Assembly (NCBI GenBank): GCA_963809035.1
Contig: CAWEHV010000002.1
Span: forward strand, 1,716,701-1,780,700
Direction: 5' to 3'
Origin: an uncultured Thermoplasmata archaeon
Lineage (GTDB): Archaea > Thermoplasmatota > Thermoplasmata > Lutacidiplasmatales > UBA184
Length of the DNA: 64,000 bases
This document shows positions 16,711 through 49,936 of this stretch, piece by piece; position 1 is the first letter of the stretch; each line of letters opens with the position of its first letter. A program made the translations under genes and the position numbers. The notes beneath the pieces are model-generated. The model ran no database searches, was not told where the DNA came from, and saw only the letters and a program-made list of their open reading frames with translations.

Positions 16711-16904
16711 TCGCTAGGCGAGGACGTCACAACGGTGAGCCTAAGTCGCTCCATTCCAAGTGGGTCGGGCCCGGCCTAGAACGTTAGGCGCGCCCAGCCG
16801 TCAGCCGTGTTCCGACCATGAAAGTCGTAGGGAATCACATCGCGGAGCTCACTCCTCTCTCTAGGATCTGGAGATAAGTCCCTCCATAAAGGAGTGTCAT
16901 TTCA

Positions 16905-16960
16905 CTTGGTCAGGTCGGCGTCCACTCCCCCGGGGGGATCAAATCGACCAGAGTCTCGGG
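16905..16960 (+). other. tRNA-like dispersed repeat (core GGCGTCCACTCCCCCGGGGGGATCAAATCG inside a ttggtc/gaccag stem)
   Basis: Same core as 8575 and 30225. Confidence 0.3.
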
Positions 16961-17178
16961 TCCGGACGGACTCGATCCTCACAGGATCTAACCCATGGTT
17001 TCCATGCGCTCCCTGGACGGTTTGTGGGCACGATGCCTACCCAGTAGACCATAGTCCAATCTATGCAATCCTTGCGGTCGGTCCTCGTCCCGCTCGCTGA
17101 TCGCGGTCCCTGTCATCGATCGCGCGCGCCCACAGCCCGAATTTGCCTGCGGCGGGTACGTACGGAGCCGGGCCAAGA

Positions 17179-17649: not shown

Positions 17650-17824
17650 CTAAATCCGATCGAGACCCACTTCCGAACCATTCGTCGGTGGGCCTTCACC
17701 CGGATTGAACTACACCGATTGGGAGGAGGCTAAGGAGGCACTCCGTCTCGCCATCCGACGGCTCAATCGGATCCACTAGGTGACCAATTCACGACCCACA
17801 CACCTCTGGTGGACGCGGCACTAG
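17605..17824 (+). mobile_element. Partial (3'-terminal ~220 bp) copy of the IS630-family element, inverted relative to the full copy
   Basis: Encodes '...LRITFVPNPTNASHLNPIETHFRTIRRW...' (= C-terminus of the transposase at 18808-19869). Ends in the same terminal repeat 'gacgcggcactag' (17812-17824). Confidence 0.7.
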
Positions 17825-17884
17825 AGGCTGCAAATTGCACGCCCGCGACTTACACTGAACCTTTGGCCGATTGGCGCTCGACGC

Positions 17885-25335: not shown

Positions 25336-25347
25336 GAGGCTTGCGAT

Positions 25348-27057: not shown

Positions 27058-27394
27058 TGGGATGCCCCTTAATCCTGGCCCGGGCCCACCTTTTACCTGG
27101 TAGGAAAGTCCGCCCTCAACCGGCTCCTTTTGCCACGCCATTGCGACCTAGTATCCTTAAGACGAGTCGATGGCCGGCCCTCTTTTCATGTGAAATCAGA
27201 CAAGGTTTCCAGAGGCCAGGACGGGACGCATCGCCACTGAAATGCGCACTGAGATCGAGCGGGAGGAAGTACTCATGAGATTGCATCGAGTCTAGTCTCT
27301 CTCCTCTGCACATGATTGTGCGTAGAGTAGATTGCCCAAAATATGGGGTGTAAACGTGGCGCCCTCGACCCGTCAAGAATCATTCTCGAGCAGG

Positions 27395-28438
27395 CTAGGA
27401 GGGTAGGCTGGCCGGGGGAGGAAGTAGTTCATTTAGCACTATTATCGGATCCTGGCTTAGGAGAACGTCATTGAGTAGAATTTGCGACTTGTTGGCGGCG
27501 ATGAAATTCAGTACCTCCTTCTTCTTGTCGCTAAAGATGTGGAGACACGCCTCGCACATTGACGAATAGTGCCGCGTGTCTCCGACGGCTGATAGAATGC
27601 CCCTGGTCCCTCGCATATGTATCCACCAGAAAAGGAGGTTCGCCCGCGCAGCCTGGACCATACTGGCAAAGCTAGTATTCATGACATTTCCGACGGAAAG
27701 GCCATCGGTATCGAACGCCGCGTGACCGCAGCAAAGGTGGACACTCCCCTCCGGGTGGACCGCGAGAGTCTTTCCAATCTGTTTGCAGCCGATCTTGTCG
27801 TTCGCCCTCTCGGAGGCAGGCAGTCGTCCCGGTTGGTCTGTAAAGAGGCGGCCACGCCCCGTCGCGCTCGGTTTATCTTCTAGAAAAATCACCCGCTGGG
27901 CTAGTTCCTCACTTGACAACCCCAGGTACTCAGCAGTACCGGCAATGACCGATTTCGAACTATGCTTGCTCCAATTATCGACTATCGTCGCCACCGCAAC
28001 ACGCAAGTTCTGAGCCAAACTCGCTTCGACAAAACGATAAACATTCTCTACGGGCATGAATTCAGCATGGTAGTCGTCGTAGCTCGTATTTATCTCGTCC
28101 AGTCCCGCCTCCTTAAGTCGGGAGACCATACTTGATGCGGAATCCTTGCTTCTGGCCCAATAGGCATTTGTAACAACTCGGGTAAGAAGGCCCATTTCGT
28201 GTGATTTCCGGATGCCATACTCCAAGTCCGCCATGTGAAGTGTTGGCTCACCCCCGGTAAAGACGACCACACCGATAGTTCCGAGTTCTTTGGCACTGTC
28301 CAGCGAGCGGTCAAGGACAACCCGCGGCATTCGAAGGGATACTTCGGGCGCACTGCTCACGCTACAATGTGCGCACCGGAAGTTACATTTCAAATCAAGG
28401 AATATTGACAATATCGTAGGGATCATACTCCGGTCCAA
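27395..28438 (-). CDS. Radical SAM enzyme with C-terminal SPASM/twitch-type auxiliary-cluster domain (peptide- or cofactor-modifying maturase family)
   Basis: 'CNFRCAHC' (CxxxCxxC) near the N-terminus, 'GGEPTL' SAM motif, C-terminal Cys cluster 'CKQIGKTLAVHPEGSVHLCCGH...CEAC'. Confidence 0.75.
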   Translation of the reverse strand: MDRSMIPTILSIFLDLKCNFRCAHCSVSSAPEVSLRMPRVVLDRSLDSAKELGTIGVVVFTGGEPTLHMADLEYGIRKSHEMGLLTRVVTNAYWARSKDSASSMVSRLKEAGLDEINTSYDDYHAEFMPVENVYRFVEASLAQNLRVAVATIVDNWSKHSSKSVIAGTAEYLGLSSEELAQRVIFLEDKPSATGRGRLFTDQPGRLPASERANDKIGCKQIGKTLAVHPEGSVHLCCGHAAFDTDGLSVGNVMNTSFASMVQAARANLLFWWIHMRGTRGILSAVGDTRHYSSMCEACLHIFSDKKKEVLNFIAANKSQILLNDVLLSQDPIIVLNELLPPPASLPS

Positions 28439-32764: not shown

Positions 32765-34114
32765 CTATGTGAGGGGATGCCCAGAAGCCACGGAATGCCT
32801 GACGGCCCCTTCCATCTGACCTATCTTGCTGTAGGCCTCTAACGGCCTAAGAACGGTAATCCCGGTTCCAGTGTAAGCCTCCTCGATTGCTGCGCCATAC
32901 TCTCGTCCACCCAGTACCACGACCCGGGCGAACTTGTGGAAACCCTCCCGAAGGAGCTGTCCTCGAATTCGGATAGTGCTGACTGCGCTGCTCCGTCGTC
33001 TAAAAGTCGCATCGTAGTTATCGTGAATCAAGAAACCGGGTCTGACGAGGCCATGTTTTGCAGACAGTATGGCCCATGCGTCGCCGAATTCCTCCGCATA
33101 GGTTCGATTCGCAAAGAAGAAGCGTCCGATGTAAGCATTCTTGGCAGCTGCAGGGCCAGCGTCGGTCCTCTCATCCCAAATCTTCCGCGACCCGCAACTA
33201 ACTATGACTAATGTCCTTCCTTGAGGTCTAGCGCGTTCGATTTCGGATTTCGCGCCGTTGAGATAGAGCGGTCCCGTGAAGATTTGATCACTCAAGAAGT
33301 TACGAACCTGGGCGTACCGCGACCTCCGGGCCAAGTGAACGGAAGCCCGCGTACGCGGCTTGTAATTGAATATCCAGCCCTTGTAATCGCTGCCGAACAA
33401 ACCGAGCTGCTGGAATCGGAGATGACGAGAGGGATGATAGCATCCAAGCGCAAACAGCCAATCGTCGGGGTGAGACGCGCGAATCCGGTCAAGAACATTG
33501 TAGAGTACTCCTTTTCCCCGCACGTGAACATAGTGCGAGGTGTTCCTGCGGCGCTTCAGCAATCCTCCTATTGCAACATGCTGATACCCCATCCTTCGAA
33601 GCCGTTCGTAACAGCGCAAGTATTCAGGGACTGATCTGCCTTGTGCGACGGCCACAAGGGTAAACTTCCGAGGTCGCTTCTCATACGCCCGCAAGCCGAT
33701 GCGCGCGCTTCTCACGGTGAGGTCCGCTGCGCGAAGCCGATCTATGATGATTCCGAAGTCGACACCCATTCTCTCGTACCGGCTGAAGAGCTCGGAATAA
33801 TCAAGGGTGCATCCATCCTTTGTAAAAACCCCCGAATCGCAAATCTTCGTTACCCCTCGACGGCGTAGCTGTCGGCATTGCTCATCATGGCCGTTGCCGC
33901 AATAGGATTCACCGCATGGGAAATCAGCGAGGAGTTGTTGGAAATGGAACGAAGTGTTCGCATGAGACATGATGCCCAGTGGACCTTCGTAATCACCGAA
34001 TCGGATTCCTCGTAAGATGCGCAATGAAGCCGGACGATCAGCTACAAAGAAGGGGGTAAAAGTCGAAAGGGCGGCAGTTCCAGAGGCTGCCCGGATGGCT
34101 GCCCGGGAAATCAA
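32765..34114 (-). CDS. TGT-fold (archaeosine/queuine tRNA-guanine transglycosylase-like, DpdA-like) protein lacking the Zn subdomain, fused to a C-terminal ~130-aa domain of unknown function
   Basis: Motifs in the ArcTGT order: 'ICDSGVFT' (cf. DSGSFQ), 'GVDFGIIID' (cf. GVDIGTFLD), 'VAIGGLL' (cf. IGGVVP), 'LFALGCYHP' (cf. LFGAGHP). No CxCxxC...H zinc motif. Last gene of the operon. Confidence 0.6.
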   Translation of the reverse strand: MISRAAIRAASGTAALSTFTPFFVADRPASLRILRGIRFGDYEGPLGIMSHANTSFHFQQLLADFPCGESYCGNGHDEQCRQLRRRGVTKICDSGVFTKDGCTLDYSELFSRYERMGVDFGIIIDRLRAADLTVRSARIGLRAYEKRPRKFTLVAVAQGRSVPEYLRCYERLRRMGYQHVAIGGLLKRRRNTSHYVHVRGKGVLYNVLDRIRASHPDDWLFALGCYHPSRHLRFQQLGLFGSDYKGWIFNYKPRTRASVHLARRSRYAQVRNFLSDQIFTGPLYLNGAKSEIERARPQGRTLVIVSCGSRKIWDERTDAGPAAAKNAYIGRFFFANRTYAEEFGDAWAILSAKHGLVRPGFLIHDNYDATFRRRSSAVSTIRIRGQLLREGFHKFARVVVLGGREYGAAIEEAYTGTGITVLRPLEAYSKIGQMEGAVRHSVASGHPLT

Positions 34115-35004
34115 CTCGAGCCTCCGCGAAGGGCGTCGAGCTCAAGGGGGTCGACCGGTAGCCCTCGGCGCGCATAGCATTGAACGAGATCAGACAACAT
34201 CTTGGCATGGGGTCCATCCAAGAGAACTCCCGCCTCTCCAGTCGCTCCAAACGAATGGTTTCTGAACTCTCCGCTACCAACATAGGCCCATTTTCGGTCT
34301 TGGACGATAATTTTGTGATGAACCGAAGCCGCGATGGCGCCTCTCGCTCGCAGATTCTCCGCCGGAGGAGGCACAAAACGGAGATAGTCCCTTATCTCAA
34401 AATGAGTGGGGTCGTCCGGGTTGTTCCGCTTGTAAGAGTCCCACAGGTTCTGGAGAGCGTCAATACGCTCTTCGTACTGGCGCGGTCGAGTCGAATCCTC
34501 CCTCACGAGGATTCCTCTTCCCACAAGCGTGAACTCGATATGGCGAGCAAATGACTTTTCAAAATCGTCGCTGAAACGTGAGAGCGCGCGGGAATCGATG
34601 AACGGGGAGATGATTTGGAGCTGTTCCTGAGCGCCACCAACCAGTGCCGAGAATACGGCCTCGAGGTTCGCATGTTCTACCGCGGGATGCAGATTGCACG
34701 CTTTGTGGGCATCAGCCATGATGTCGATTGGATCATTGTGAATCACCGTTACCTTTCCCGCGTGTCTGGCCCAGTCGATGCGAGGCCGAGCAACGCGGTA
34801 GGCCCGACCCGGTGATTGAATGAGCTCCAGGTCGCCCTGTCGAACTAGGCGTTCGAGGGCCAGTTCAATCTCAGGCATCGGAATGTCGTCCAACTCGTCA
34901 ATAATCTCTCTGGGCCCCCCTACGCCTAGCCTTTGAAGGAGGGACGAAATCTGCAGGTCAATTTGGTCACTGCTGGTCATTCTGTTGAATCCAGTCGACC
35001 GCAA
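34111..35004 (-). CDS. Phospholipase D-family (HKD) nuclease, DrmC/DpdK-like
   Basis: Single HKD motif 'HHKIIVQD...GSGEFRN'. 4-nt overlap with the downstream gene and 38-nt overlap with the upstream gene. Confidence 0.7.
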   Translation of the reverse strand: MRSTGFNRMTSSDQIDLQISSLLQRLGVGGPREIIDELDDIPMPEIELALERLVRQGDLELIQSPGRAYRVARPRIDWARHAGKVTVIHNDPIDIMADAHKACNLHPAVEHANLEAVFSALVGGAQEQLQIISPFIDSRALSRFSDDFEKSFARHIEFTLVGRGILVREDSTRPRQYEERIDALQNLWDSYKRNNPDDPTHFEIRDYLRFVPPPAENLRARGAIAASVHHKIIVQDRKWAYVGSGEFRNHSFGATGEAGVLLDGPHAKMLSDLVQCYARRGLPVDPLELDALRGGSS

Positions 35005-36697
35005 TCGTTCTGTCTAAGAGGAGGTTCGGGGGCATCCAGCGGTTGTACTCCCGAGTCAAGAACCCGTGGCAAGACGTGTTGTCCGTCTTGATGCAGGCGA
35101 TGCAAGAGGAGTCGCAAAGCTGCGGACACTCCTGGATTCGTCGAATTCCTCGCACGAGCCAACTGGTCATCTGGCCGGAATGCTGAGAGAGCTGGGTGAT
35201 TCCACCGTCGGCCAGATCCCGTGTTTCGAAAAAGAGAATCGCGGCATCTGCCACGAGCATCCGGGAATCGAAATCCTCGAGGCCGATTTCTGTAACGAGT
35301 GAGGAGCGGAGGGCGTGCTCTATAGCATGAAGCAGCTTGGTCATTACGAACACGTTTTTCTCACCGTCAGCGGTCAGGAGATCCTGCAATCCCAACCTTG
35401 CAACGTTCTCCGACTCCGCCATGAACCGCCTCTCGTAATCCTGACCCTCCCCGTTACCGCCCGATAGAAGCCTCGCTAGCTTCGTCTTGTTGAGGCCGAT
35501 AATCAATCCACGACCTTCGGTGATCGTGGCAAAGGCACGGAATCGCTGGACCCCCGGCTGTACTTGGAAGAAGCGTGGGTAACGCTCGTCGTCAGGGACC
35601 GGCGGCTTGGGTCTGATTTCCGACCGGTACCCATAGACAGCTAGAAGAGATTGAATCTGTGGTACATCGAAAATTTCGGTTGCGCCAAGCCTACGGAGCC
35701 ATTTTGCGGCGCTAGGTTCAACCGTAGACATCGTGAACGAGTGCATCGTGTCTCTGTGCTGAGTCTTCAGACTCGCGAGTTGAACGTCTCGCCCCTGAGC
35801 GTCTCGGACAAATGTGACTGTCAGAGGTACCGCAATTTCTCCACTCGTAGCGGAGCGAGGAGCCATGATCGACGTCGTTTCTCCAGCGAGTAACTCTTCG
35901 TCAGAAATGTTGCAGATTGAGCAGAGTCGATTGACTCGTTGCGTGTTGATGTTCGACGGACAACTGGTCACCTCGCATCGCCAATGAGCATCACTCAGGT
36001 TCGCCCCGATGTCCAAGAACAGTCCATGGCCAGAGGTGCAGTGGATCCAGCCGGTGGCAAGTTTCCTTGAGAATGTGTTGTACGGCAGGAGCGGTTCGAT
36101 GTTTGCGCACCTTGGGCAGGAATAGACAACGTTCAGCTGGTGAAGCTCAGAATCTTCCTTGTGAAAAGTGCAACGGAGGCTTTCGGCGCCGTTTGGGTCG
36201 AGGTTGTAGTACCGATGGCATGAGTCACAAAGGAACAATGTAGGAAATATTGCACCCTGGACTTCGCTATTCTCATCTATCAACCGGAGGTCGACAGACT
36301 CTGGACCCATAACTCGTTCGTGGGCCCCTTCAACCCGTTGCCCGTCCGCCGAAACTTCGGTTCCCTTAGTCGCTCCTAGGCTGGCCAAGAACGCATTTGC
36401 GGCCACCTGGTCGGCCACCAGGCCGGCCGCCACATTCTGAACCGGCAAGATCCGCAACGATCGGTCACGTTCTTCTCGGCGCACGGCGCGTGCTATGCGC
36501 GCACGCGCCTCGCGATCGACCTTGCGTGCGTAGTCGACGCTGATTAGTCGCGCGATAGTCGTTTTAACAGTTTCGTATTCATCGCCAAGCGGCCGCCCGG
36601 TGAGTCGCACAGTTCGTAGTGTCGCATATTCGGTGCTCCAGGGTCTGTCAGGAAAGTACCGGAATAGGGCTTGGTACTTGCTTACCTTCCGCGTCAA
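34967..36697 (-). CDS. Cys-rich protein with C-terminal zinc-ribbon, DUF1998/DrmB-like by position and Cys pattern
   Basis: 576 aa. Multiple CxxC/CxxxC clusters, including C-terminal 'CPQLCDSSCIACIKTDNTSC'. Start overlaps the helicase stop (ATGA). Confidence 0.4.
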   Translation of the reverse strand: MTRKVSKYQALFRYFPDRPWSTEYATLRTVRLTGRPLGDEYETVKTTIARLISVDYARKVDREARARIARAVRREERDRSLRILPVQNVAAGLVADQVAANAFLASLGATKGTEVSADGQRVEGAHERVMGPESVDLRLIDENSEVQGAIFPTLFLCDSCHRYYNLDPNGAESLRCTFHKEDSELHQLNVVYSCPRCANIEPLLPYNTFSRKLATGWIHCTSGHGLFLDIGANLSDAHWRCEVTSCPSNINTQRVNRLCSICNISDEELLAGETTSIMAPRSATSGEIAVPLTVTFVRDAQGRDVQLASLKTQHRDTMHSFTMSTVEPSAAKWLRRLGATEIFDVPQIQSLLAVYGYRSEIRPKPPVPDDERYPRFFQVQPGVQRFRAFATITEGRGLIIGLNKTKLARLLSGGNGEGQDYERRFMAESENVARLGLQDLLTADGEKNVFVMTKLLHAIEHALRSSLVTEIGLEDFDSRMLVADAAILFFETRDLADGGITQLSQHSGQMTSWLVRGIRRIQECPQLCDSSCIACIKTDNTSCHGFLTREYNRWMPPNLLLDRTIAVDWIQQNDQQ

Positions 36698-38310
36698 GGT
36701 GGGCCGGTCTCCTCCACAGTATCATCGGCGGAATCATCTTCGATTACCGTCTCTTCGTGATGAAATTGCTGTAACTGGCCAGCCAAGGCGTCGACGGGCC
36801 GAACAGAAACGTCGCGCTCTTCAGAGTCCCGTAACGAGAGAAGAAGAAGCTGGTCGGCTGAGAGGATACCGCCGATGTAGTTCCCGGGACCTCCCATCGA
36901 GCTCCACGAGACAATGAGATGGGTGAGCTCATCAAATGCGAGATCTAGGTACTCCCGGTAATCCGGTCCTTCAGTACCGCTCAGGACTTCGGCGAGATCT
37001 CTGAGCACCTGCACCTTCAGAGCAGGGTTCGCCTCCAGTTTCTGGACCGCCTTGGGAGCGGTCATCATGTACCGGTCGTCGTAGGTACTGTGAGCGAATA
37101 AGACCACGCGAAGCACATTCGCGAATATCTGGCGAGCGGCGTATCGATTCGCGCGTCGCATGGGGCGCGGTTCGAAGTAGCCACGCAAATCGCTTAGTAT
37201 GTAGTGAAAGTTCGCGTAGAACTCAATATCACGAGGAAGATCAGGCCGGACGATTACGTGTGCATGTCCTGGCGCTCTTTCGCGTCGCCCAGTTCGCCCA
37301 ATTGTTTGAACGAATTCCGTGATTGATTCGGGGAGGCTCACCATCACGAGTTGGTTTAGGTCCTCGATATCGAGACCCAGGCTAATCACAACATTTGCCA
37401 CGAAACTCTGAAGTGAACCTTTCGATGCACGGGTGAAGTAGTCCACGAGTCTGTCATTGGGAGTATCGCCCGAGATGAACGGTATCGTGTCTCCGCCCCC
37501 GGAAGCACGTCCGGTAGCATCTCTATATTCCCTTACTAGGAGCCGACCCACATCCTTCCGCTGGACGTAGGTGAGGTTGATTCCGTACGGACGGCCTTCT
37601 CCAGTGTAACCCAACTTCGTTTCGAGCTGACGCTGGAACTTGTGATTCTTGAGAATTGCGTCTCTAACGTGCACCATCGTGCGGGTTGCCAAACGAGGAC
37701 TGCTAGTCCCGATCGGCATTGTGACTAGGCTCCTGTACCGCGTTCTACTGGGATCGACCTCGAAGCTCTTCGAGAATTCGACGTCTGCTGGACTCACAAT
37801 TAACTGATGATTCGGGTCGTCTAACCGCGTGAGCTCTGCCAGAAGCTCTGCTTCGTTTGCGATAGTAGCGGTCCCGACCTGGAATCCAAAAAGCTTGGCG
37901 ATTCGACCGCCGGGGGGATCATTAGGTGTCGTGGCACGTCGTTGATAGAGTTGAAGCAAGGCGATGAATGTACTAAGGTAGATTCCTGTCAGTCCATGTA
38001 GGCTGTGGACTTCATCGAAGGTCCAAAACTGAATCGGCCGTCTGGTCTCGGGGCCGAGGTTTTCAGAGTTACACTTGATGCAATGGGTAGCGTAGTTCCA
38101 CCAAACGGGGCTCATGGCCCCACATTCTCCGCAGGGGCGGACCGGGAAACCGAACAAGCGCATCCCAGGAGGTTCGGCACCCGACCGAGCCGTGGCTTCG
38201 AAGAAGAGTTTGTCGGGGGTGGCGATTAGAATCGCGGGTAAGAAATCCGCGGATTCCCCACTGCCATACATATAGTCAATTTTGTGCTCGCACTCAGACC
38301 TGATCTCCAC
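36694..38310 (-). pseudogene. SF2 (DExH) helicase, C-terminal portion (motifs II-VI) of a gene split by IS insertion; DrmA-like
   Basis: 'FWTFDEVHSL' (motif II DEVH) and 'QTIGRTGRRERAPGHAHVI' (motif VI). The N-terminal half, with Walker A, is encoded at 39982-41652 on the same strand on the other side of the IS. Confidence 0.65.
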
Positions 38311-38319
38311 GCCCGTTAG

Positions 38320-40020
38320 TTGCTAGCTTCCTTCCCGGACCCCTCCTTCTCCTCGAGGATCCGCACTGTTCGACCGGCAGGTTCATTAGGAACATACGCA
38401 CTACATAGTACGTATGGCGTTCCCTCGGGTCATCACCACGCGCGGCCGACACTATCTCCAGCAGGTCGAGTCGGTCTGGGACCCGAAGAAGAAGCGCTCC
38501 GTCACCCGGGTCCTCGCCCATCTCGGCCCCTGCGATGAGGGCGGCAAGCTCCTGCGCCCGCCTCGGGCCCGGGTGGAGAGCGTTCACTCCTCGTTTCCGG
38601 TCGGTCCTCTCGCCGTGCTGTATGCCGCGGCCCGTGAGCTCCGGGTGCGCGAGCATCTCCAGAGGGTTCTTCCGGGGGCTCCTACCGAGCTGATCCTGTG
38701 TCTCGCCCTGAACCAGGCCACGGCCCGCGTCCCGATCTGCCGCCTTCCCGAGTGGGTACGGGCGAGCCCGCTGCCTCGGTGGGAGAGCTTCCCGGCCGAG
38801 GAGCTAAGTCCTCGACACTTCGAGGAGGCACTCTCCTCGCTCTGTCACCTCACCCCGGAGAAGACGTGGGAGGACCGGGGCCTCCTGCTTCAGCAGGAAC
38901 TCACCGGGGCGTGGCGGGGCCGCTCTCGAGAGCCGGCCGGCGCCTACTACGACATCACGAAACAGGCGTACTACGGGAAGCATTGTCCCTACGGCCAGTT
39001 GGGCCACGACGAGCGGGGCACGGCCCCGGTCGTGGGGTTCGGGATGGCCGTGTCCCGGGAGCATCACCACCCGATCCTCTGTCGAGTCCTTCCCGGTGGA
39101 CAGAACGATTCGCTGAGCGTGGCTCCCACGCTGGAGCTGCTCCAGTCCCAGGGTCTGCGGCATCTGACGCTCGTGATGGACAAGGGGATGACGTCGAAGG
39201 CGAACGTGCTCCGAGCGCGCGAGGCGGGCTACCACGTCATCGGGTCGGTCAAGGGGTGGAGCGCCGAGTCGGTGGAGCATGCCTCTCGATGGCCCGGGGA
39301 GGAACTGGAGCGCTCGGAGTTCGTGGTCGGGACTTCCCATGGAGGGGCGGTGTATGCGCGGGCGTTCACGGCGCCGCTGCTGGGGCTACCGAAGGTGAGG
39401 ATCGCGGTGGTGGAGAATCTCTCCCGCAAGGCGGAGGATCGCCAAGCGCGGGACCTTCTGCTTCAGGAGTTGGAGGGACCGGTGGCGAAAGCTCGGTTGG
39501 AGGAGATCCGCTCGGAACTGGGCGAGGTCATCGTCACCGCCCGAGGAAGGAGAGGGTTCCGAGTCGACCCGAAGGCCGTGGAGCGGGAACGGGCGCTGGA
39601 CGGCCGCTTCCTGCTGTTCAGTACGGTCCTCTCGCTCGACGGGCGAGCGATGTACCGGGAGGTACTTCGCGAAGGATGCGGTGGAGAAGGCGTTCCGCAC
39701 GAGCAAGGGGGAACTGTCGCTGGGCCCGGTGAGGTATCGTCGGAAGGATCGGTTGGACGCCTACGCCACGGTGGTCTACGTGGCGTATTTGCTCTGGAGT
39801 TGGGCGGAGCGGAGGTTGCAGGAGAAATACCCCGAGCGGAGCCTGTCGGAGGCGATGCGCTCCCTCGAGAATCTGGCGTGGGTACGGTTTGGGACCGGGA
39901 AATCCGTCCGGGAGTGGGCCACTCGCCTCACCACCGAGCAGGAGAAGGTTCTCGCCGCCGTCAGCGCCGTACAGTATGTAGCTACATACTAACAGGCCGC
40001 GAGCTCAGGTCAGAGTTCTG
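38320..40020 (+). mobile_element. IS1634/IS4-superfamily (ISH-like) insertion sequence interrupting the helicase gene
   Basis: About 1.7-kb block. Carries a DDE transposase in two frames and separates the two halves of one helicase reading frame. Terminal repeats are only weakly recognisable (…tatgtag…). Confidence 0.6.
38414..39992 (+). CDS. IS1634/IS4-family DDE transposase, two frames (38414-39690 and 39681-39992; frameshift near 39670)
   Basis: 'VMDKGMTSKANVLRAREAGYHVIGSVKG' and C-terminal 'AFRTSKGELSLGPVRYRRKDRLDAYATVVYVAYLL' (cf. the 'E.FR..K..L..RP..H....R..AH' end of IS4/IS1634). Either a sequencing error, a programmed shift or a pseudogene. Confidence 0.65.
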
Positions 40021-41652
40021 ACAGACTCCGATAATCCTTTTCCCGAAGTTCTGTGCGAATACTGACTTGCTTCTGTGGCAGTTCGGGCAGACTTCGAACT
40101 GCACCATACGCTGTCCAACATTGGGTCGCGCAACGGCAGCGTAGAGGGGGTCCCGAGTTCCGATGAGGATTCCTCCCGTGATGTTGGACTTAGGGAATAC
40201 CTGCCTCGAGTTATGCAAGAGAATCGTCAGCCGGCGGTACATGTCCTCGTTAAGAATTCTAGTGGGAAACGCGAGCACCGCTCGATTTCCGGTCCATAGA
40301 TAATACAAAAGGGAATTTGCCATGAAAACGAGGGTCTTACCCGTCCCTGTGGGGGCCTTTACCAGGTGGCACGATCCAGCGACCTTGGCGTTCAACAAAA
40401 GTTGGACTTGCCTTTGAATGGCCAACCATTGAAACCAGTGCAAATGCGTGATTTCCGGGAATGAACGATGAATCGACTCGATGACCCCAGCAAGAGTCGC
40501 AATCCGGCCACTTGCCTTCAGTTTCATCAATTCCTCCTCTGAAAGGCAATCGAGGTGGGATGCCAGGCCCTCTTCATCTCCGAGTTCGCTTATTGGGGGT
40601 CCAGGCACGGGGCGGATCAGCACGCTGTCGTGGACGGCAGTCATGGCGGCAATGAGGAGCTTTGATGAACCGGGCGGAATCGTGACCACGCAATTCACAC
40701 CGCGGGGGGCGTTTTGCTGAATCTCAGTGAGGAACGCCCGTCGAGCCTCCCCCGCCTCCTCGGCGACGAGCCTCTGAGAATCGTCTTGCGTCGGGAAGGT
40801 AATATCTCGGTCGAATGCTATTCGAACTTCGGGGAAAACAATCGTCTTCTCTCCCCAGTACGTTGCGGCAGCTGCTTCCTTTTCGCTCACATGCGTGACG
40901 TTCGTAACATCAATCTCTAGGGTCGGGGGGTTTCCGTTCGATTCAGAACTCAGCCGGGCGGTCACTCGAACGGTCCTCGGAGGCGAGCGATGCAACAGAA
41001 CAGCCGCTCCGGTCGGGCGTGCTGCGTTCGACTCCACCTCTGCGTTCTGACGGCTCTCTTCTCTCAGGACTTCGCGGAACTCGGGAATCTCAATGGTGAA
41101 ATCGTTCGAGGTCCCTAAGTCAAGCTTTCCCTCCCAAGTGTAGTGACCTAGGGAGAGGCCGATTGGCCGGACGGCAGATCCAATTTCGCTGCGGAGATTT
41201 GCCCGTTTCAGACCGGGTCCCTCTGTGGACTCGACGTCAAAGAAATCACGAGGTATCGAAGGACGCTTAACCGATCTCCGCTCACGCAACCCGTGTTGAG
41301 TTTGCTCGGCATAGGAAACCCACCGTGGTACGGAGAAATCGATTCGGACTTGTACCGCACCGGGATTCGAGAATAGCGGAACGATCACGCGTATGTAGGG
41401 TGCGTACCGCCATGCTTGATTTCGCTTTCGAATCGAAACATCGTGCGGCACCAGGTAGTTCGCGAGGAACGAGTCCCGCACCTCGCGCAGTGGGCTGAAC
41501 GTGACCTGGTGTATCTGGGGAGCAGATATTTGATCGAGCGCGAGACTGTCAGGTCTGTTCGGATGAGAATCGGCAAGGAATCGACGAATCCGGTCATCCA
41601 GTGTCCCTGAGAGTGAGCTAGCTGCGACCATATGTGAGCCCTCCGTGACCAA
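39982..41652 (-). pseudogene. SF2 helicase, N-terminal portion (large N-terminal domain, Walker A 'APTGTGKT', zinc finger 'CPNCH') of the IS-split DrmA-like gene
   Basis: Motif I near the C-terminal end of this ORF. Reading frame runs into IS sequence and stops at 39982. Confidence 0.6.
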
Positions 41653-43855
41653 GAAGCGTCACTTCGACTGCTCGAACCTTGAACCCGCCGGGACTAGCCA
41701 ACCAGACACCCCCGACTCTTGCCCTGGGATACGCGAAGGCGCACAAATGCTCGACTGCTTTCGATACCGAGTAGGCCGGGCCGACCGCGGCACCGGCACC
41801 TCGAAGCGAAACGCTTCCGAAGCGCCGGAAGACACCGCAAGCTCGCTTCACCAGTCCGCGAAAATCCGCGTCGCGCGGAACGTTTATGATTCTTGGAGCT
41901 GTCCCCCCTCCCGCCTCCTTCCAGAGTTCCTCTTGTGCGGTCCAATCTTTACGCTGTTGGGAAGCTTCCAGATTCGCCAGCTCGATCACAAGAGGCACCC
42001 TCGAACCAGTCCCCCCAACCGCGAGTCGTGTTAATTCGGTGTGTTTTAGCCAGAACATGGGATGGGCTCGATCCATCGAGAGAGCGTGAGTGGAAAGTCG
42101 AGCAAAATCTGGTGTCGTACGAAATCGTTCCTCGTCATCGACTGAACCCCGGCGGGAGAGTTTCTCCCACTTAACGACGGATTGTGGAGTAACCTGACTA
42201 GGTACGTAAACCCAAGTGTCCTCACAGTCAATGACGTGGGCAGAGTTCCTAAGGGATCTGAGGGACTCCTTGAGTGGGCGCACCCCGGACCACGCGCGGT
42301 CCAATAGCTCGACGCCAGCGTCGGAGATTGAACGGTATGACTTGACGATACCTAAGGCGGAAATCTCCTCCGCGCGCTGCCGCGATATCACTTCGATTTT
42401 GTGGAAAGGTTCCACTTGGAACTCAAATCGGTCGGTCTGGGTTCGCTGACGTCCGCGCAAGGTGTCGGACAGAATCACTTCGATCCATTGGCCCGGCTGG
42501 AGACTTCGGATAAAGCCCCGACGACGCTCAAAGTCCTCGAAATCGAAGATCAATTGTGATGGCAGTCCGAACACATCTCTGGCGAAGATAGAGGGTTGTG
42601 AGCAATATCTATCGAGAGGGGCTTTCACCTCGAATGGTGAGACGAATGTTCGGCTAAATGGGTGGTGCCCTTCTGACCACGTGTTGCGATCGATATTGAA
42701 TGCGGCGAATTGCCCTGCGTCGGAAACCAGAGCCTCCAGTGAGGGCAAGGAAGCCAGATGGGTCATAATGAATGTTCGGATTGCCGGGTCGAGTTGTTGA
42801 GTAGACAGGGAGCCCGCGTCGCCCGTGTTCCGCACGCGACCGAGGTAAGGGTAGGCTCTCCAACGTGCCAGGATTAGCCGGCGAAGGAATGTCCGCGCGG
42901 GATCGGCCCTGCCTTCCCGGTGCCTCTCAGGACTGATTGTCGTGCTAAGGTGCAAGATGGTGTCGAATTCGGGAACGTAGATGCGGAAGTAGTTTCCAGA
43001 GTAAGCTCCGCCGAATCTAGTCTTTTCCACGCTGAGTATGATTGACTCGAGTTGTGGGGTCAATCCTTGAAGCTCTGCATCCTTCCAGTCCACCATTCGA
43101 TGGGAGAAATCTCTGACAAAATCGATTCCGAGTGCGGCTGTAGGGTTCGTGGCAGCTTCCTCACGAAGCTTTGCCCAGATTGAGTTTAGCTCGGCAGAGT
43201 CGAAAGGTTTCTCAGCTTCGAGGGCCAAGTCTGTTCGGAGGTAGTTGATTCGATCCTCGTTCTTCAGGTATCGGCTATACAATTCGCTAAGCAGATTCGA
43301 AACTAGCTCGACGGGAGCCAATGGAATCTCCGCAGCATCCTTCCGCTGCTTCCACGATTCGATTGAGGAGAGTTCTGGTCGAAGCCCGTAGTCTTCCAGC
43401 TCCGCCTCCACCTTTGGCCAATCGGCGCTTCTAAACTGCCAGAACGCGAATTCGCCATCCTCAGTGCGAAGCAGCTCATGTCGCGGTGAGAGAGCGGCCA
43501 AGTGGGCGTACAATTGCGTCGGAAGCCAGGTCTCAGATACATCCAGGTACACGTGCTCCGGGTCTCTAAGAAGCCCGAGTCGGATGGATGGGAGGCGTCG
43601 AGCCCGGAGGATGTAATCCACTTTCGACGCTTGGATTGGATGAACCGATCCTTCCTGAACGATACCGAAATCCGGCGGTCTGCCTTCAACTCGAAAGCTC
43701 CTCAGAATCCATCCGTTTAACAACAAAGGCCGTCGACCAGCTCCGGTAGGTAGCCAATGGATGGGGAGCCATGTCCGGTCAAGAATCCGAAGGAATTGAA
43801 CATGGCTCCCTTCTGGGAGGTTCCCCTGGAAGAATCCCCAACCCGCCATCGGCAT
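41618..43855 (-). CDS. 745-aa protein of unknown function, first gene of the operon (DrmE-like by position)
   Basis: Long ORF with a 35-nt overlap onto the helicase start. No recognisable catalytic motifs. Confidence 0.45.
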   Translation of the reverse strand: MPMAGWGFFQGNLPEGSHVQFLRILDRTWLPIHWLPTGAGRRPLLLNGWILRSFRVEGRPPDFGIVQEGSVHPIQASKVDYILRARRLPSIRLGLLRDPEHVYLDVSETWLPTQLYAHLAALSPRHELLRTEDGEFAFWQFRSADWPKVEAELEDYGLRPELSSIESWKQRKDAAEIPLAPVELVSNLLSELYSRYLKNEDRINYLRTDLALEAEKPFDSAELNSIWAKLREEAATNPTAALGIDFVRDFSHRMVDWKDAELQGLTPQLESIILSVEKTRFGGAYSGNYFRIYVPEFDTILHLSTTISPERHREGRADPARTFLRRLILARWRAYPYLGRVRNTGDAGSLSTQQLDPAIRTFIMTHLASLPSLEALVSDAGQFAAFNIDRNTWSEGHHPFSRTFVSPFEVKAPLDRYCSQPSIFARDVFGLPSQLIFDFEDFERRRGFIRSLQPGQWIEVILSDTLRGRQRTQTDRFEFQVEPFHKIEVISRQRAEEISALGIVKSYRSISDAGVELLDRAWSGVRPLKESLRSLRNSAHVIDCEDTWVYVPSQVTPQSVVKWEKLSRRGSVDDEERFRTTPDFARLSTHALSMDRAHPMFWLKHTELTRLAVGGTGSRVPLVIELANLEASQQRKDWTAQEELWKEAGGGTAPRIINVPRDADFRGLVKRACGVFRRFGSVSLRGAGAAVGPAYSVSKAVEHLCAFAYPRARVGGVWLASPGGFKVRAVEVTLLGHGGLTYGRS

Positions 43856-43904: not shown

Positions 43905-45335
43905 CTATATCACGAAGTCGCGGACGTCGATGACTCTGAACTTCGGTCCTGCGTCCCCAAGGCTGGCTTCGATCACAAGCCGAGCCAGGTGTTCCCTGCA
44001 GTCTCCCTGCATGCGAAGCACATCCATGCGAGTCGCCGAAGCGTCGGGAGGAATGCAATGGAATGAGAGATGGGTCGACTCTTGAATCTCACCGGTGACG
44101 GCAACACCTGCTGCCGCCGCTGCCGTCTTCACTGCTCGTCGGAGAAAATCGGTCAGGACTCCATCTTCCAGGCCTTTTGGTACACGAATGTCGAAGCCCT
44201 GTTCGGGCCCGTCCCCGGCAAACGACAGGATAATCGGAATCGGGTCGGCGGTTCGGCTTTCCGAAAGAACCCTGGCAAGTTCCGTTGCCTGGCGGTGAGA
44301 AGCTAACGCTGCCGTTGCAGACTTGGCAGCCTCTCCCATTGATTCGTGCGCCGCCCTCTTCTTTTCGTAAGAGGAAATCATCTCTTCTCTGGCGGCCCGA
44401 TCTATGCCGGCACTGATCACCGACTTTATCGACTCTGGAACACGCAGTGCTCCGCGCTCCATCGCATCTAGGAAAACCAGTTCGTCTCTCGCGGCAAGAT
44501 AGGCCGCCGCCGCAGATTTGTGAAACTCGGATTCCTCCCAAGCACCGACGTTTCCGATGGCCTCGAGCTCGGCAATCGAAGAGACGTGAAGTCCTTGCGG
44601 CCTCAAAATCTCATTTGCCCACTCGACCAGGTCCGTCCGCGCGACCCGGAGTTGTTCCTCGAGTGGGCGACTCCCGCCAATCCGGCCAGAAGGTCGCGAC
44701 CCCGATTCGATTCTTCGAAGCGATGATGCAGCCCGGCTGACGACTTGCATCGCTGCTTTTGCAGGATCGTCCGCATATGTCTGCAGGTCGTGCAGAACTG
44801 TGTCGTGCGCTTCCTGGGCGCCCTTCCGCAGCCGCTCGGCCTCATCCTTTTCCCGTCCGAGTCGCTCGACCTCCCTCGTCAGAATCTCGGCCCTTGACTG
44901 TAGTCGCGCTTTTTCCTGTTCCACCTGGAGGCTCTGTGCTTGATAGGCCAGCTCAAGCTCGCGCGCGCGTTTTTCCAGTTGATTCTCAATCCACGCTTGA
45001 TCACGCGGTGGCTCCCGTTCGGCTACAGCAGCAACTGACCGAGGTGGGACGGCAGTCAGGTGCCATTGAAGGTACTGCCCCCTTGCCGATGCGATACGAC
45101 CCCTGGCCTTCTCAAGGTATTCTTCCCATTGAGGCCGTGAAAGGCCGGTGAGAAGGAGCCTCCCTTTCGCAATATCCTCGATATCGACTCGAGCATGTTC
45201 CGATTTCGCTTTGGGTAGCGTCCCAAGATACGAATTCAATAGCCCTTTGAATCCCTGAACAGCGGTCGAAAGGTCGCCCCCTTTTACCTCGATTTCTGCC
45301 AGGAAAGAGGAAGCTTGCGCCGTCATGCACCCCAC
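43905..45335 (-). CDS. 476-aa coiled-coil-rich hypothetical protein
   Basis: Central region 'ENQLEKRARELELAYQAQSLQVEQEKARLQSRAEILTREVERLGREKDEAERLRK' is a strong heptad pattern. Confidence 0.45.
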   Translation of the reverse strand: MGCMTAQASSFLAEIEVKGGDLSTAVQGFKGLLNSYLGTLPKAKSEHARVDIEDIAKGRLLLTGLSRPQWEEYLEKARGRIASARGQYLQWHLTAVPPRSVAAVAEREPPRDQAWIENQLEKRARELELAYQAQSLQVEQEKARLQSRAEILTREVERLGREKDEAERLRKGAQEAHDTVLHDLQTYADDPAKAAMQVVSRAASSLRRIESGSRPSGRIGGSRPLEEQLRVARTDLVEWANEILRPQGLHVSSIAELEAIGNVGAWEESEFHKSAAAAYLAARDELVFLDAMERGALRVPESIKSVISAGIDRAAREEMISSYEKKRAAHESMGEAAKSATAALASHRQATELARVLSESRTADPIPIILSFAGDGPEQGFDIRVPKGLEDGVLTDFLRRAVKTAAAAAGVAVTGEIQESTHLSFHCIPPDASATRMDVLRMQGDCREHLARLVIEASLGDAGPKFRVIDVRDFVI

Positions 45336-49741: not shown

Positions 49742-49920
49742 AGGGGTTTCCCCAGGTCCTGGTGCACGCGACGACAGTCGAGCAGGGGGAGAGGGACCTG
49801 ACGAACGCGCTGATCGAGCACCTGAGGCGGCTGCAGGATCACGAGACAACTCGGATCGACTGGGATGAGTTCCCGACGGTGCGAGTCGTTCGGTTGAGAC
49901 TAACCCCTCTCGCGGGATAG
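49666..49920 (+). CDS. HicB-like / UPF0150-fold small protein (84 aa)
   Basis: 'FEIRLRILD...SFIGIVEGFPQVLVHATTVEQGERDLTNALIEHL' follows the HicB N-domain pattern (beta-hairpin, 'PG/PQ' turn, 'T.GET/QGE..EAL'). Confidence 0.4.
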   Translation: MFEIRLRILDLRERESDLPSFIGIVEGFPQVLVHATTVEQGERDLTNALIEHLRRLQDHETTRIDWDEFPTVRVVRLRLTPLAG

Positions 49921-49936
49921 GCGTTCCCGCAAGGTG

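What the first reader, a model, noticed from the sequence alone, without database searches (positions are those of the whole stretch)
32765..43855. DISARM-like defense operon in which the methyltransferase slot is taken by a TGT-fold (DpdA/ArcTGT-like) transglycosylase
Seven collinear minus-strand ORFs with overlapping stops and starts run in this order: a 745-aa unknown protein, a large DExH helicase (Walker A, DEVH, QxxGRxGR), a Cys-rich zinc-ribbon protein, a single-HKD phospholipase-D nuclease, and a TGT-fold protein. Class-2 DISARM runs drmE-drmA(helicase)-drmB(DUF1998)-drmC(PLD)-drmMII(methylase). Here the order is the same, but no methyltransferase is present. The last gene instead carries all four core TGT motifs in the ArcTGT order and lacks the zinc subdomain, as DNA-acting DpdA enzymes do. 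An archaeal host already makes preQ0 for archaeosine. A DNA-directed TGT paralog could therefore mark self DNA with a 7-deazaguanine, while the helicase, PLD and DUF1998 proteins restrict unmodified DNA. I do not know of such a hybrid being described.
Basis: partly seen in the sequence, partly recalled or inferred. Interest (0 to 1): 0.9.

Follow-up and report, generated by a model that had tools for sequence, protein, structure and literature searches.

The report
DISARM-like defence operon with DpdA-type base-swapping enzyme
An archaeal anti-virus operon built like DISARM has, where the DNA methylase normally sits, an enzyme of the kind that swaps guanine in DNA for a 7-deazaguanine base; the layout recurs in other microbes, but this copy is broken by a mobile element.

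Summary

The five-gene cassette recurs in eight lineages I examined. Only one has a DNA methylase next door, and the 64-kb window has none.

The DpdA-like/DUF6884 pair is a portable module. Of 129 related loci, 96 pair it with HerA plus a NurA-like protein. Others pair it with SIR2-ORC/CARF-like genes or with fused YprA-type helicases.

The best reading is a restriction-modification-like system that marks self DNA with a 7-deazaguanine. The chemistry is untested. I found no description of this architecture; the nearest published relatives are Dpd, BRIGADE and BRC. I rate it a new variant of a known kind.

The parts
43905..45335 (-). 476-aa coiled-coil-like protein of unknown function; possible accessory sixth gene
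   Evidence: No Pfam, PADLOC or NCBIfam hit. Homologues lie next to the cassette in two other lineages at different positions: L003 11585-13105 and L135 14440-15900.
41618..43855 (-). 745-aa first gene of the cassette ('X745'): a multi-domain nucleic-acid-binding protein in the position of DrmE
40010..41652 (-). drmA 5' fragment (N-terminal region plus RecA1 with Walker A). The ORF as read runs on to 39982, into the IS
   Evidence: PADLOC DrmA PDLC02573 positions 307-503, E 4.8e-16, and Pfam DEAD. tblastn with intact L001 DrmA residues 1-542.
38299..40009 (+). IS1634-family insertion sequence (1711 bp) interrupting drmA; transposase ORF at 38414-40021
   Evidence: Terminal inverted repeats CCTGA(T/G)CTC... 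and a 5-bp TCAGA duplication at 38294-38298 and 40010-40014. NCBIfam transpos_IS1634 E 4e-27, 95.3 bits against a cut-off of 100. GC is 0.647 against about 0.55 in the flanks. It is the only copy in the window, and the same insertion occurs in the 99.97%-identical contig L006.
36694..38298 (-). drmA 3' fragment (DEVH box, RecA2 with motif VI, C-terminal region)
   Evidence: PADLOC DrmA PDLC02573 positions 501-962, E 1.6e-39, and Pfam Helicase_C. Joining it to the 5' fragment after removing the IS and one duplication copy gives an uninterrupted 1080-aa ORF. A family profile hits PDB DrmA 7s9v_A at E 1.1e-9 over 237 residues.
34967..36697 (-). drmB (576 aa; OB-CON-DUF1998-type zinc-binding partner of DrmA)
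   Evidence: PADLOC DrmB PDLC02581 E 7.9e-25 over residues 5-569. A family profile hits only DrmB 7s9v_B in the PDB, E 7e-5. Fourteen Cys are invariant in eight sequences, including a C-terminal C524/C528/C532/C535/C543 cluster. A near-identical fragment is named 'DUF1998 domain-containing protein' by NCBI. The Pfam MZB/DUF1998 model gives no hit at E 0.1.
34111..35004 (-). drmC (297 aa; single-HKD phospholipase-D-family nuclease)
   Evidence: PADLOC DrmC PDLC02600 E 1.7e-13. Pfam PLDc_2 scores 21.8 bits, below the 27-bit gathering score. The HxK...D...GSxE motif is visible in the translation.
32765..34114 (-). 449-aa fusion of a DpdA-like DNA-guanine-transglycosylase TIM barrel (aa ~20-280) and a DUF6884 domain (aa ~300-445)

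Best explanation
This is a restriction-modification-like defence operon made of two modules.

**Restriction module.** It is DISARM-like and has four parts:
- DrmA, an SF2 helicase of the YprA family.
- DrmB, its separately encoded zinc-binding DUF1998-type partner.
- DrmC, a PLD-family nuclease.
- A 745-aa OB/winged-helix/Alba nucleic-acid-binding protein specific to this DrmABC clade.

**Modification module.** It is not a methyltransferase. It is a single 449-aa protein. Its N-domain is a DpdA-type DNA transglycosylase with an Asp nucleophile (D243) and an Asp acid/base (D93). Its C-domain is DUF6884, a predicted base-flipping, DNA-binding domain distantly related to YaaA/DpdC.

**Inferred mechanism.**
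1. The transglycosylase exchanges guanines in host DNA for a 7-deazaguanine base. That base is most likely preQ0, drawn from the host pool made for archaeosine.
2. The fused DUF6884 domain then does one of two things. It may process the inserted base, as DpdC does when it hydrates preQ0 to the amide (ADG). Or it may supply the DNA opening that DpdB's ATPase supplies in bacteria.
3. DrmAB translocates on unmarked incoming DNA, and DrmC and/or partner proteins degrade it.

**Shown and inferred.** Shown here: folds, catalytic residues, conserved synteny, absence of a methylase, and modular reuse of the DpdA-like/DUF6884 pair. Inferred: the identity of the inserted base, the role of DUF6884, and that the mark blocks restriction.

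**State in this genome.** drmA is interrupted by an IS1634-family element, so restriction is probably lost while the modification gene stays intact.
For: - **DISARM core.** PADLOC DrmA, DrmB and DrmC profiles match. Family profiles hit the solved DrmB and DrmA chains of 7s9v.
- **TGT/DpdA fold and catalytic set.**
- **DUF6884.** The domain carries conserved CxxxK and LSAxxG motifs. Pfam curators describe it as YaaA-related and likely base-flipping. DpdC belongs to the YaaA/DUF328 family according to PMC12839542. There are weak direct links: PADLOC DpdC E 3.9e-4, hhalign against YaaA E 3e-4, and YaaA 5caj as the best PDB hit at E 0.15.
- **Conserved cassette.** I examined it in eight lineages: window/L006, L001/2, L003/4/50, L026, L090, L130, L131/2 and L135. 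Genes overlap or abut. One lineage (L090) has a permuted order. Contig lengths point to a ninth copy (the P0060 contig) that I did not fetch.
- **No methylase.** No DNA methyltransferase was found beside seven of the eight examined cassettes, though flank coverage is uneven and the L131/132 contigs barely extend beyond the cassette. The 64-kb window has none.
- **Portable module.** The DpdA-like/DUF6884 pair is fused in 75 loci and split into two genes in 39, out of 135. It is linked to at least four effector sets: HerA plus NurA-like (96 of 129 loci), SIR2-ORC plus CARF-like, split DISARM-like, and fused YprA-MZB(-PLD) helicases.
- **Module shuffling.** DISARM-context copies are polyphyletic among HerA-context copies.
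- **Decay pattern fits restriction-modification logic.** The effector is disrupted and the modifier intact in the window/L006 and probably in L008 and L015/L072, whose effector ORFs are fragmented for reasons I did not check. I saw no locus where only the modifier was disrupted.
- **Precedents.** DpdA/B/C mark DNA for Dpd restriction. Dpd's helicase lies in the DISARM-like clade.
Against: - There are no chemical data, so neither the substrate base nor a DNA target is demonstrated.
- The barrel scores only 31 bits on the NCBIfam DpdA equivalog (cut-off 200). It is missed by Pfam TGT and every other Pfam model at E 0.1, so it is a separate subfamily whose specificity could differ.
- No DpdB-like ATPase is present, and bacterial DpdA needs one.
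- preQ0 synthesis genes are not part of the module. QueC or QueD homologues lie within 10 kb in only 3 of about 135 loci, roughly the chance expectation by my estimate.
- The link between DUF6884 and DpdC is weak. Stand-alone DUF6884 genes are common on plasmids and phages without any TGT partner.
- One lineage (L001/2) does carry an adjacent N6-adenine methylase/Eco57I-like gene.
- SIR2-type partners elsewhere are typical of abortive-infection systems, which do not obviously need self-marking.
Confidence: 0.6

Rival explanations
1. The DpdA-like/DUF6884 enzyme is an effector or sensor aimed at invader DNA, not a self-marker. It would recognise and excise or exchange bases in incoming DNA, for example the 7-deazaguanines that many phages use to evade restriction. 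That would leave abasic or covalent lesions, which the helicase/nuclease partners then process. This would be a type-IV-like, modification-dependent defence.
For: - The same catalytic Asp pair would support base excision as well as exchange.
- A DUF6884 member, YfjM, was recovered as an interactor of abasic and RNA-base lesions according to the Pfam paper.
- No preQ0 synthesis genes or DpdB accompany the module.
- Partners include SIR2- and HerA/NurA-type effectors, which are often triggered by sensing rather than by absence of a mark.
- Phage and archaeal-virus genomes with 7-deazaguanines are documented.
Against: - Every characterised DpdA inserts a base; none is known to act as a glycosylase for restriction.
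- The gene sits exactly where DISARM class 2 has its methylase.
- Where cassettes are decayed, the partner genes are broken and this gene stays intact. That fits a modifier better than an effector, though the sample is only three lineages.
Confidence: 0.13
2. The TGT-like enzyme modifies a protein or an RNA, not DNA. A precedent is the type IV CBASS Cap10 TGT-like enzyme, solved in complex with the cyclase CdnD in a structure titled as containing an 'NDG modification'. Under this reading the enzyme regulates the DrmAB/X745 machinery and does not mark the genome.
Against: - No QueC-like partner occurs in the cassettes. That Cap10 works with a QueC-like Cap9 is from my own knowledge, not a tool result.
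- The ArcTGT C-terminal tRNA-binding domains are absent from the model.
- The fused partner domain is predicted to bind DNA.
Confidence: 0.07
3. Self/non-self discrimination is provided by an ordinary methyltransferase encoded elsewhere in the genome, or adjacent as in L001. The DpdA-like/DUF6884 protein would then have an accessory DNA-repair or housekeeping role and merely be co-located.
For: L001/L002 have a 986-aa N6_Mtase/Eco57I gene immediately downstream. Only 64 kb of the 2.3-Mb genome could be inspected.
Against: - The gene is translationally coupled to drmC by a 4-nt overlap.
- It is retained in all eight examined lineages of the cassette despite only about 40-72% identity.
- It travels with unrelated effector sets in more than 100 other loci.
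- Seven of the eight examined lineages have no adjacent methylase.
Confidence: 0.1

Closest known systems
DISARM class 2 (drmE-drmA-drmB-drmC-drmMII; Ofir et al. 2018, as summarised in PMC11529989)
   Same: - The helicase (DrmA) and its DUF1998 partner (DrmB) are encoded as separate adjacent genes, followed by a PLD nuclease (DrmC), in the same order and co-oriented. According to Bell et al., consistent separation of these two genes is seen only in the DISARM branch.
- A large protein of unknown function comes first.
- One modification gene comes last.
   Different: - The last gene is a DpdA-like transglycosylase fused to DUF6884, not a C5 methylase.
- The first gene has no detectable similarity to DrmE profiles.
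- DrmA and DrmC are far below NCBIfam equivalog cut-offs.
Dpd system (dpdA-K; 7-deazaguanine restriction-modification of Salmonella Montevideo and others)
   Same: - A TGT-fold DNA transglycosylase with the same catalytic residues, which is the best structural match.
- A partner from the YaaA/DUF328 superfamily (DpdC in Dpd, DUF6884 here).
- Restriction genes that include a DISARM-clade YprA helicase and a PLD nuclease.
   Different: - No DpdB ATPase, and none of DpdD-I.
- The modifier is one fused protein.
- The C-domain is DUF6884, not DUF328.
- The helicase is split DISARM-style, and the 745-aa protein is unique to this clade.
- The hosts are mainly archaea.
BRIGADE (Bell et al., bioRxiv 10.1101/2025.09.15.676423)
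   Same: It is an archaeal hybrid of Dpd-like base hypermodification genes with YprA-family helicases and PLD nucleases.
   Different: - BRIGADE helicases are ARMADA-like.
- It usually has two helicases.
- It carries a 7-deazaguanine biosynthetic cluster plus DpdG and DpdHI/BrxC.
- It was found only in haloarchaea.
- None of these features applies here.
BRC, BREX-related capture system (PMC12839542)
   Same: A TGT-family enzyme is proposed as an alternative self-marking module recruited into a non-Dpd defence system, without DpdB.
   Different: BRC is a seven-component system built around PglZ, BrxC-like, STAND, DUF4007, HerA/FtsK and GNAT proteins. Its authors report no DpdC homologue. Here the partners are DrmABC and the TGT is fused to DUF6884.
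Viral DpdA subfamilies (DpdA1-4; PMC6884629, PMC10516641)
   Same: They are stand-alone DNA transglycosylases that work without DpdB and use host or phage-made 7-deazaguanines.
   Different: Those enzymes protect viral genomes. The protein here is cellular and sits in a defence cassette. It matches neither Pfam TGT nor DUF6610 (the DpdA4 family), and tblastn finds no barrel homologue in phage or plasmid records.

Membership tests
DISARM | DrmA: SF2/YprA-type helicase | tested here: met
   PADLOC DrmA E 1.6e-39 and 4.8e-16 on the two fragments. A family profile hits PDB DrmA 7s9v_A at E 1.1e-9 and YprA 6znp. NCBIfam DISARM_DrmAS scores only 26.7 bits against a cut-off of 950, so it is a distant member. 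The gene is interrupted by an IS in this window.
DISARM | DrmB: separately encoded DUF1998/MZB zinc-binding protein next to DrmA | tested here: met
   PADLOC DrmB E 7.9e-25, full length. The only significant PDB hit of the family profile is DrmB 7s9v_B, E 7e-5. Cys clusters are conserved. The Pfam MZB model itself does not hit at E 0.1.
DISARM | DrmC: PLD-family nuclease | tested here: met
   PADLOC DrmC E 1.7e-13. The HKD motif is present. Pfam PLDc_2 scores 21.8 bits against 27, and NCBIfam DrmC_I scores 23.6 against 133.
DISARM | A DNA methyltransferase (DrmMI N6-adenine or DrmMII C5-cytosine) in the operon | tested here: not met
   No DNA methyltransferase domain occurs in any operon protein or in any ORF of 150 aa or more that I scanned, which covers nearly all such ORFs in the window. 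It is absent next to seven of the eight examined homologous cassettes.
DISARM | DrmD (SNF2) or DrmE | tested here: not met
   The 745-aa protein and ten of its homologues, near and distant, hit no PADLOC DrmE or DrmD profile. It resembles DrmE only in position and size.
Dpd (7-deazaguanine restriction-modification) | DpdA: TGT-fold DNA transglycosylase with Asp nucleophile and Asp acid/base | tested here: met
Dpd (7-deazaguanine restriction-modification) | DpdB: ParB-like ATPase required for insertion | tested here: not met
   No operon or flanking protein I scanned hits a PADLOC DpdB profile or a ParB domain.
Dpd (7-deazaguanine restriction-modification) | DpdC: DUF328/YaaA-family enzyme converting dPreQ0 to dADG | tested here: inconclusive
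   The C-domain is DUF6884, not DUF328. The links are weak: PADLOC DpdC E 3.9e-4, hhalign against YaaA probability 39% and E 3e-4, and PDB YaaA E 0.15. Pfam curators state a distant relationship.
Dpd (7-deazaguanine restriction-modification) | dPreQ0/dADG present in genomic DNA | not testable with these tools
   This requires LC-MS/MS of DNA nucleosides.
tRNA-guanine transglycosylases (bacterial TGT / ArcTGT) | Match to the Pfam TGT model, the C-terminal zinc subdomain and, for ArcTGT, the C1-C3/PUA tRNA-binding domains | tested here: not met
BRIGADE | ARMADA-like YprA helicase(s), a 7-deazaguanine biosynthetic cluster and DpdG/DpdHI | tested here: not met
   The helicase matches DrmA profiles and is split DISARM-style. 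No QueC/D/E homologue occurs in the window or in the cassette loci. No DpdG, DpdH or DpdI hits were found.

The most novel reading that the evidence does not exclude
The DpdA-like/DUF6884 pair could be a widespread, DpdB-independent, portable 'epigenetic marking' cassette of archaea and bacteria. It would write a 7-deazaguanine-type base, possibly a derivative not yet seen in cellular DNA, and serve as the self-label for at least four unrelated effector architectures:
- split DISARM-like DrmABC plus X745;
- HerA plus NurA-like;
- SIR2-ORC plus CARF-like;
- fused YprA-MZB-PLD.

That would define a large, undescribed superfamily of non-methyl restriction-modification-like systems, and the operon in this window would be its DISARM-type member.
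Probability: 0.4. Interest if true: 0.8.

Novelty: new variant of a known kind. Interest (0 to 1): 0.62.

Why it matters
**Base hypermodification in place of methylation.** If the inferred function is right, DISARM-type restriction can be coupled to base hypermodification. The enzyme for that comes as a compact single-protein module that needs only the host's preQ0 pool.

**More cellular DNA may carry 7-deazaguanines.** The known organisms would extend from Dpd-bearing bacteria (and, by prediction, BRIGADE haloarchaea) to Thermoplasmata, methanogens, Asgard archaea and several bacterial phyla.

**A tractable test for DISARM.** The cassette gives a simple system for asking how DISARM-like helicases tell self from non-self. 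That question is still open for canonical DISARM, which is not strictly methylation-dependent.

**Practical value.** A DpdB-independent DNA transglycosylase fused to a base-flipping domain would be a useful tool for site-directed DNA base exchange.

**Scope of the claim.** The finding is bioinformatic, and the copy in this window is disrupted. Experiments should use an intact homologue (L001, L003, L130 or L135).

Tried and rejected
- **A tRNA-modifying ArcTGT paralogue: rejected.** There is no Pfam TGT hit and no PUA or zinc domain, and the DpdA match is stronger.
- **The C-domain as a bona fide DpdC: not supported beyond a distant superfamily link**. tblastn against plasmids and phages found only stand-alone DUF6884 genes and no barrel homologues.
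- **preQ0 genes as part of the module: not supported.** phmmer with E. coli QueC, QueD and QueE found neighbours in only 3 of about 135 loci, which I treat as chance.
- **A methylase hidden in the neighbourhood: not found.** I scanned nearly all ORFs of 150 aa or more in the window, plus the flanks of L026 and L090.
- **An intact copy in the sister contig: none.** L006 carries the identical IS insertion.
- **A genomic island bounded by a tRNA: dropped.** Rfam does not support the ARAGORN tRNA-Glu at 49879-49954 and ORFs overlap it, so I treat it as a false positive.
- **Word-indexed protein searches found few relatives.** X745 returned 3 hits and DrmB returned 6. The exhaustive profile search was needed for X745.
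- **Literature searches returned no description of this architecture.** I tried DISARM+DpdA, 7-deazaguanine+DrmA, DpdA+HerA, deazaguanine+NurA+HerA, guanine transglycosylase+DUF1998, and DUF6884. The stored supplements of Bell et al. mention neither DUF6884 nor DpdA.

Full report
**1. What is in the sequence**

The window comes from a Thermoplasmata archaeon. Exact protein look-ups place it on a 2.3-Mb contig, and near-identical fragments are named 'Thermoplasmata archaeon' by NCBI.

Between 32765 and 43855 the minus strand carries these ORFs:
- 745 aa at 41618-43855
- 556 aa at 39982-41652
- 538 aa at 36694-38310
- 576 aa at 34967-36697
- 297 aa at 34111-35004
- 449 aa at 32765-34114

Neighbouring ORFs overlap by 4-38 nt.

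The 556-aa and 538-aa ORFs are the two halves of one helicase gene. Between them lies a GC-rich stretch (0.647 against about 0.55) with a plus-strand ORF that matches IS1634-family transposases (NCBIfam E 4e-27).

The element spans 38299-40009. It has imperfect terminal inverted repeats of about 31 nt and is flanked by a 5-bp direct repeat, TCAGA. Removing it and one repeat copy restores an uninterrupted 1080-aa ORF. That ORF is collinear with intact 1067-1078-aa homologues.

A second assembly of the same population is 99.97% identical over 14 kb and carries the same insertion. The system in this genome is therefore most probably crippled.

**2. The restriction-like core is DISARM-like**

PADLOC profiles give:
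- DrmA, E 1.6e-39 and 4.8e-16 on the two halves, covering contiguous profile positions 307-503 and 501-962;
- DrmB, E 7.9e-25, end to end;
- DrmC, E 1.7e-13.

A profile of DrmB homologues finds the solved DrmB (7s9v_B, E 7e-5) as its only significant PDB hit. A DrmA profile aligns 237 residues to solved DrmA (7s9v_A, E 1.1e-9) and also detects YprA.

These proteins are distant members. NCBIfam equivalog models score far below their cut-offs, and Pfam's MZB/DUF1998 model misses DrmB.

Encoding helicase and DUF1998 protein as separate genes is, according to Bell et al., consistent only in the DISARM branch.

**3. The first gene (X745)**

X745 has no hit in Pfam, PADLOC or NCBIfam. An exhaustive profile search of 1.84 billion representatives finds only 33 relatives. 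None of the ten tested matches DrmE profiles.

X745 follows DrmABC even in a distant locus (L134). That locus has a different gene order and shows no DpdA-like gene, although its contig is short and cut at the 5' end. X745 therefore belongs to the restriction module. It is analogous to DrmE in position and size only.

**4. The last gene**

The 449-aa protein has 280 or more relatives. An AlphaFold2 model built with 63 sequences is confident (pLDDT 92.4, pTM 0.90).

The residues that Gedara et al. identify in DpdA are D95 (acid/base), F99, D130, H181-G182, G206-G207, L236 and D256 (nucleophile). I map them to D93, F97, D125, Q158-G159, G183-G184, L223 and D243 here. All are invariant in 63 sequences. 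The partial profile alignment to 7ui4 supports the first five sites. Matching 20-residue spacing supports L223 and D243.

The barrel lacks the zinc and PUA domains of tRNA enzymes. It is missed by Pfam TGT and by every other Pfam model at E 0.1. It scores 31 bits on NCBIfam DpdA against a cut-off of 200. It is thus a separate DpdA-like subfamily, distinct from bDpdA and from DpdA4/DUF6610.

*C-domain.* Residues ~300-445 are DUF6884 (E 2.4e-15). The CxxxK and LSAxxG motifs are invariant in the 19 closest relatives. Pfam's curators describe DUF6884 as a distant relative of YaaA (PF03883) with a DNA-binding cleft and a predicted base-flipping site.

DpdC is assigned to PF03883/DUF328 in PMC12839542. 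My own tests of the link are weak:
- PADLOC DpdC, E 3.9e-4;
- hhalign against E. coli YaaA, probability 39% and E 3e-4, aligning the LSAxxG motif;
- YaaA as the best but non-significant PDB hit, E 0.15.

**5. Conservation and absence of a methylase**

The five-gene cassette occurs in eight lineages that I examined:
- window/L006;
- L001/L002 (72% identity for the DpdA-like protein);
- L003/L004/L050 (55%);
- L026, from a Heimdallarchaeota MAG;
- L090, with the DpdA-like gene first;
- L130;
- L131/L132;
- L135.

Contig lengths point to one more copy, on the P0060 contig, which I did not fetch.

Only L001/L002 have a DNA methyltransferase next door, a 986-aa N6_Mtase/Eco57I protein. I found none in the available flanks of the others, although the L131/L132 contigs barely extend past the cassette. 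None occurs in the 64-kb window.

A 476-aa gene adjacent in the window recurs next to the cassette in two other lineages at different positions. It may be an accessory component.

**6. A portable module (beyond the original finding)**

Scans of genomes and metagenomes gave 129 loci. By neighbouring genes they sort as follows:

| Partner genes | Loci |
|---|---|
| HerA ATPase (PADLOC HerA E 3e-48) plus a ~610-aa protein with a faint NurA match | 96 |
| SIR2-ORC/CDC6 ATPase plus a CARF-like protein | 8 by the automatic sort; more carry these gene clusters |
| Split DISARM-like cassette | 8 |
| 1450-aa helicase with fused MZB/DUF1998 plus a ~1000-aa protein | 5 |
| Helicase-MZB-PLD fusion (Archaeoglobus) | 2 |
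| Other or contig too short | 10 |

Counting the window and five loci fetched later, DUF6884 is fused to the barrel in 75 of 135 loci. It is a separate small gene in the same cluster in 39. It is undetected in 21, many of which are short contigs.

DISARM-context barrels are not monophyletic. The nearest relatives of those in L026, L090, L130 and L131 sit in HerA contexts. The pair therefore behaves as a shuffled module, as modification genes do in restriction-modification-like systems.

Where cassettes are decayed, it is the partner genes that are broken. This holds for the window/L006, and probably for L008 and L015/L072, whose effector ORFs are fragmented for reasons I did not check. I saw no locus with only the modifier disrupted. 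The sample is small.

**7. Mechanism**

The best-supported model has three steps:
1. The barrel exchanges guanine in host DNA for a 7-deazaguanine, probably preQ0 from the host pool.
2. DUF6884 either processes the inserted base, as DpdC does, or supplies the DNA opening or base flipping that DpdB's ATPase assists in bacteria.
3. DrmAB, DrmC and X745 act on unmarked DNA.

Folds, catalytic residues, synteny, absence of a methylase and modular reuse are shown. The base, the DNA target and the protective effect are inferred.

Four points count against the model:
- There is no DpdB.
- No linked preQ0 genes exist. QueC or QueD homologues are near the module in only 3 of about 135 loci.
- The barrel is a divergent subfamily.
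- Stand-alone DUF6884 genes are common without TGT partners.

The rival explanations are:
- an invader-directed glycosylase or exchange enzyme, acting as a type-IV-like defence against 7-deazaguanine phages;
- a distal methylase doing the marking.

**8. Comparison with known systems and novelty**

DISARM is defined by drmABC, a methylase and drmD or drmE. Here the three core genes pass, but the methylase and DrmD/E features fail. The operon is therefore DISARM-like, not DISARM.

Dpd shares the DpdA fold, a YaaA-superfamily partner, a DISARM-clade helicase and a PLD nuclease. It differs in DpdB, DpdD-I and overall architecture.

BRIGADE (haloarchaea, ARMADA-like helicases, biosynthetic cluster) and BRC (PglZ/HerA/STAND/TGT) are recent precedents for Dpd-type modules in other defence systems. 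Both have different components. [quoted passage not shown]

I found no paper that describes a DrmABC cassette with a DpdA-like/DUF6884 gene, or the HerA/NurA-like/DpdA-like trio. I therefore rate it a new variant of a known kind. It is of solid but not exceptional interest (0.62), reduced because this particular copy is inactivated and the chemistry is untested.

Noticed in passing
L007, L009, L010, L016, L017, L133 and about 90 other loci (e.g. L009 2606-7506): The commonest home of the DpdA-like/DUF6884 module is a three-gene cassette: a ~610-aa protein with a faint NurA match, a ~620-aa HerA ATPase, and the DpdA-like/DUF6884 protein. When the barrel lacks the C-domain, a separate ~150-aa DUF6884 gene sits upstream of the pair. 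I found no description of this cassette in the searchable literature, and it differs from the seven-gene BRC system.
   Followed up: partly
L019-L021, L049 (e.g. L021 6481-11300): The same module follows an 830-aa SIR2 + ORC/CDC6-like ATPase fusion and a ~335-aa protein that matches PADLOC CARF profiles. This pairs a presumed DNA modifier with an NADase-type effector.
   Followed up: partly
L015/L072 (Archaeoglobus, 9962-18075); L093, L124, L125, L129: The module has further YprA-type partners. In Archaeoglobus it is a helicase carrying Helicase_C + MZB/DUF1998 + PLDc_2 in one 1387-aa protein, preceded by a separate 311-aa DEAD fragment that may be a split gene. In the L093 group it is a 1450-aa DEAD/Helicase_C/MZB helicase plus an unknown ~1000-aa protein.
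   Followed up: partly
window 43905-45335; L003 11585-13105; L135 14440-15900: A 476-506-aa protein with no family match lies next to the DISARM-like cassette in three lineages, but on different sides and strands. It may be an accessory component.
   Followed up: partly
L001 9112-12072 (also L002): The closest intact homologue of the cassette is followed by a 986-aa N6_Mtase/Eco57I/MmeI-like protein. It may be a separate type IIG enzyme or a lineage-specific addition. It is the only methylase seen next to any of the cassettes.
   Followed up: partly
window 49879-49954: ARAGORN calls a tRNA-Glu(CUC) here. Rfam finds no tRNA anywhere in the window, and two long ORFs overlap the stretch, so it is probably a false positive.
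   Followed up: yes
window 49937-54253 and 62966-63970: A 1438-aa UvrD-type helicase with PADLOC GajB matches (E 2e-11) and a 334-aa protein with a weak HNH match lie a few kb from the operon. The region may be a defence island.
   Followed up: no
window 5939-7210 and 22592-23272: There is a weak tyrosine-integrase match (423 aa) and an IS66-family transposase fragment. Together with the IS1634 element they point to mobile-element activity in this stretch.
   Followed up: no
window 23863-28438: A beta-lactamase-fold protein, an ABC exporter (transmembrane and ATPase domains) and a radical-SAM/SPASM protein sit together. The arrangement looks like a peptide-maturation and export cluster and is unrelated to the finding.
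   Followed up: no
window 38414-40021: Only residues 31-413 of the 535-aa transposase ORF match the IS1634 model. The C-terminal ~120 residues are Gly/Arg/Glu-rich, and the ORF runs 12 nt past the element's end, so the transposase may be frameshifted or decayed.
   Followed up: no
L130 2236-9855: Upstream of the cassette in this haloarchaeon-like contig lie genes with PycTM, RNase_T and ThiF domains. These may belong to other defence systems in the same island.
   Followed up: no
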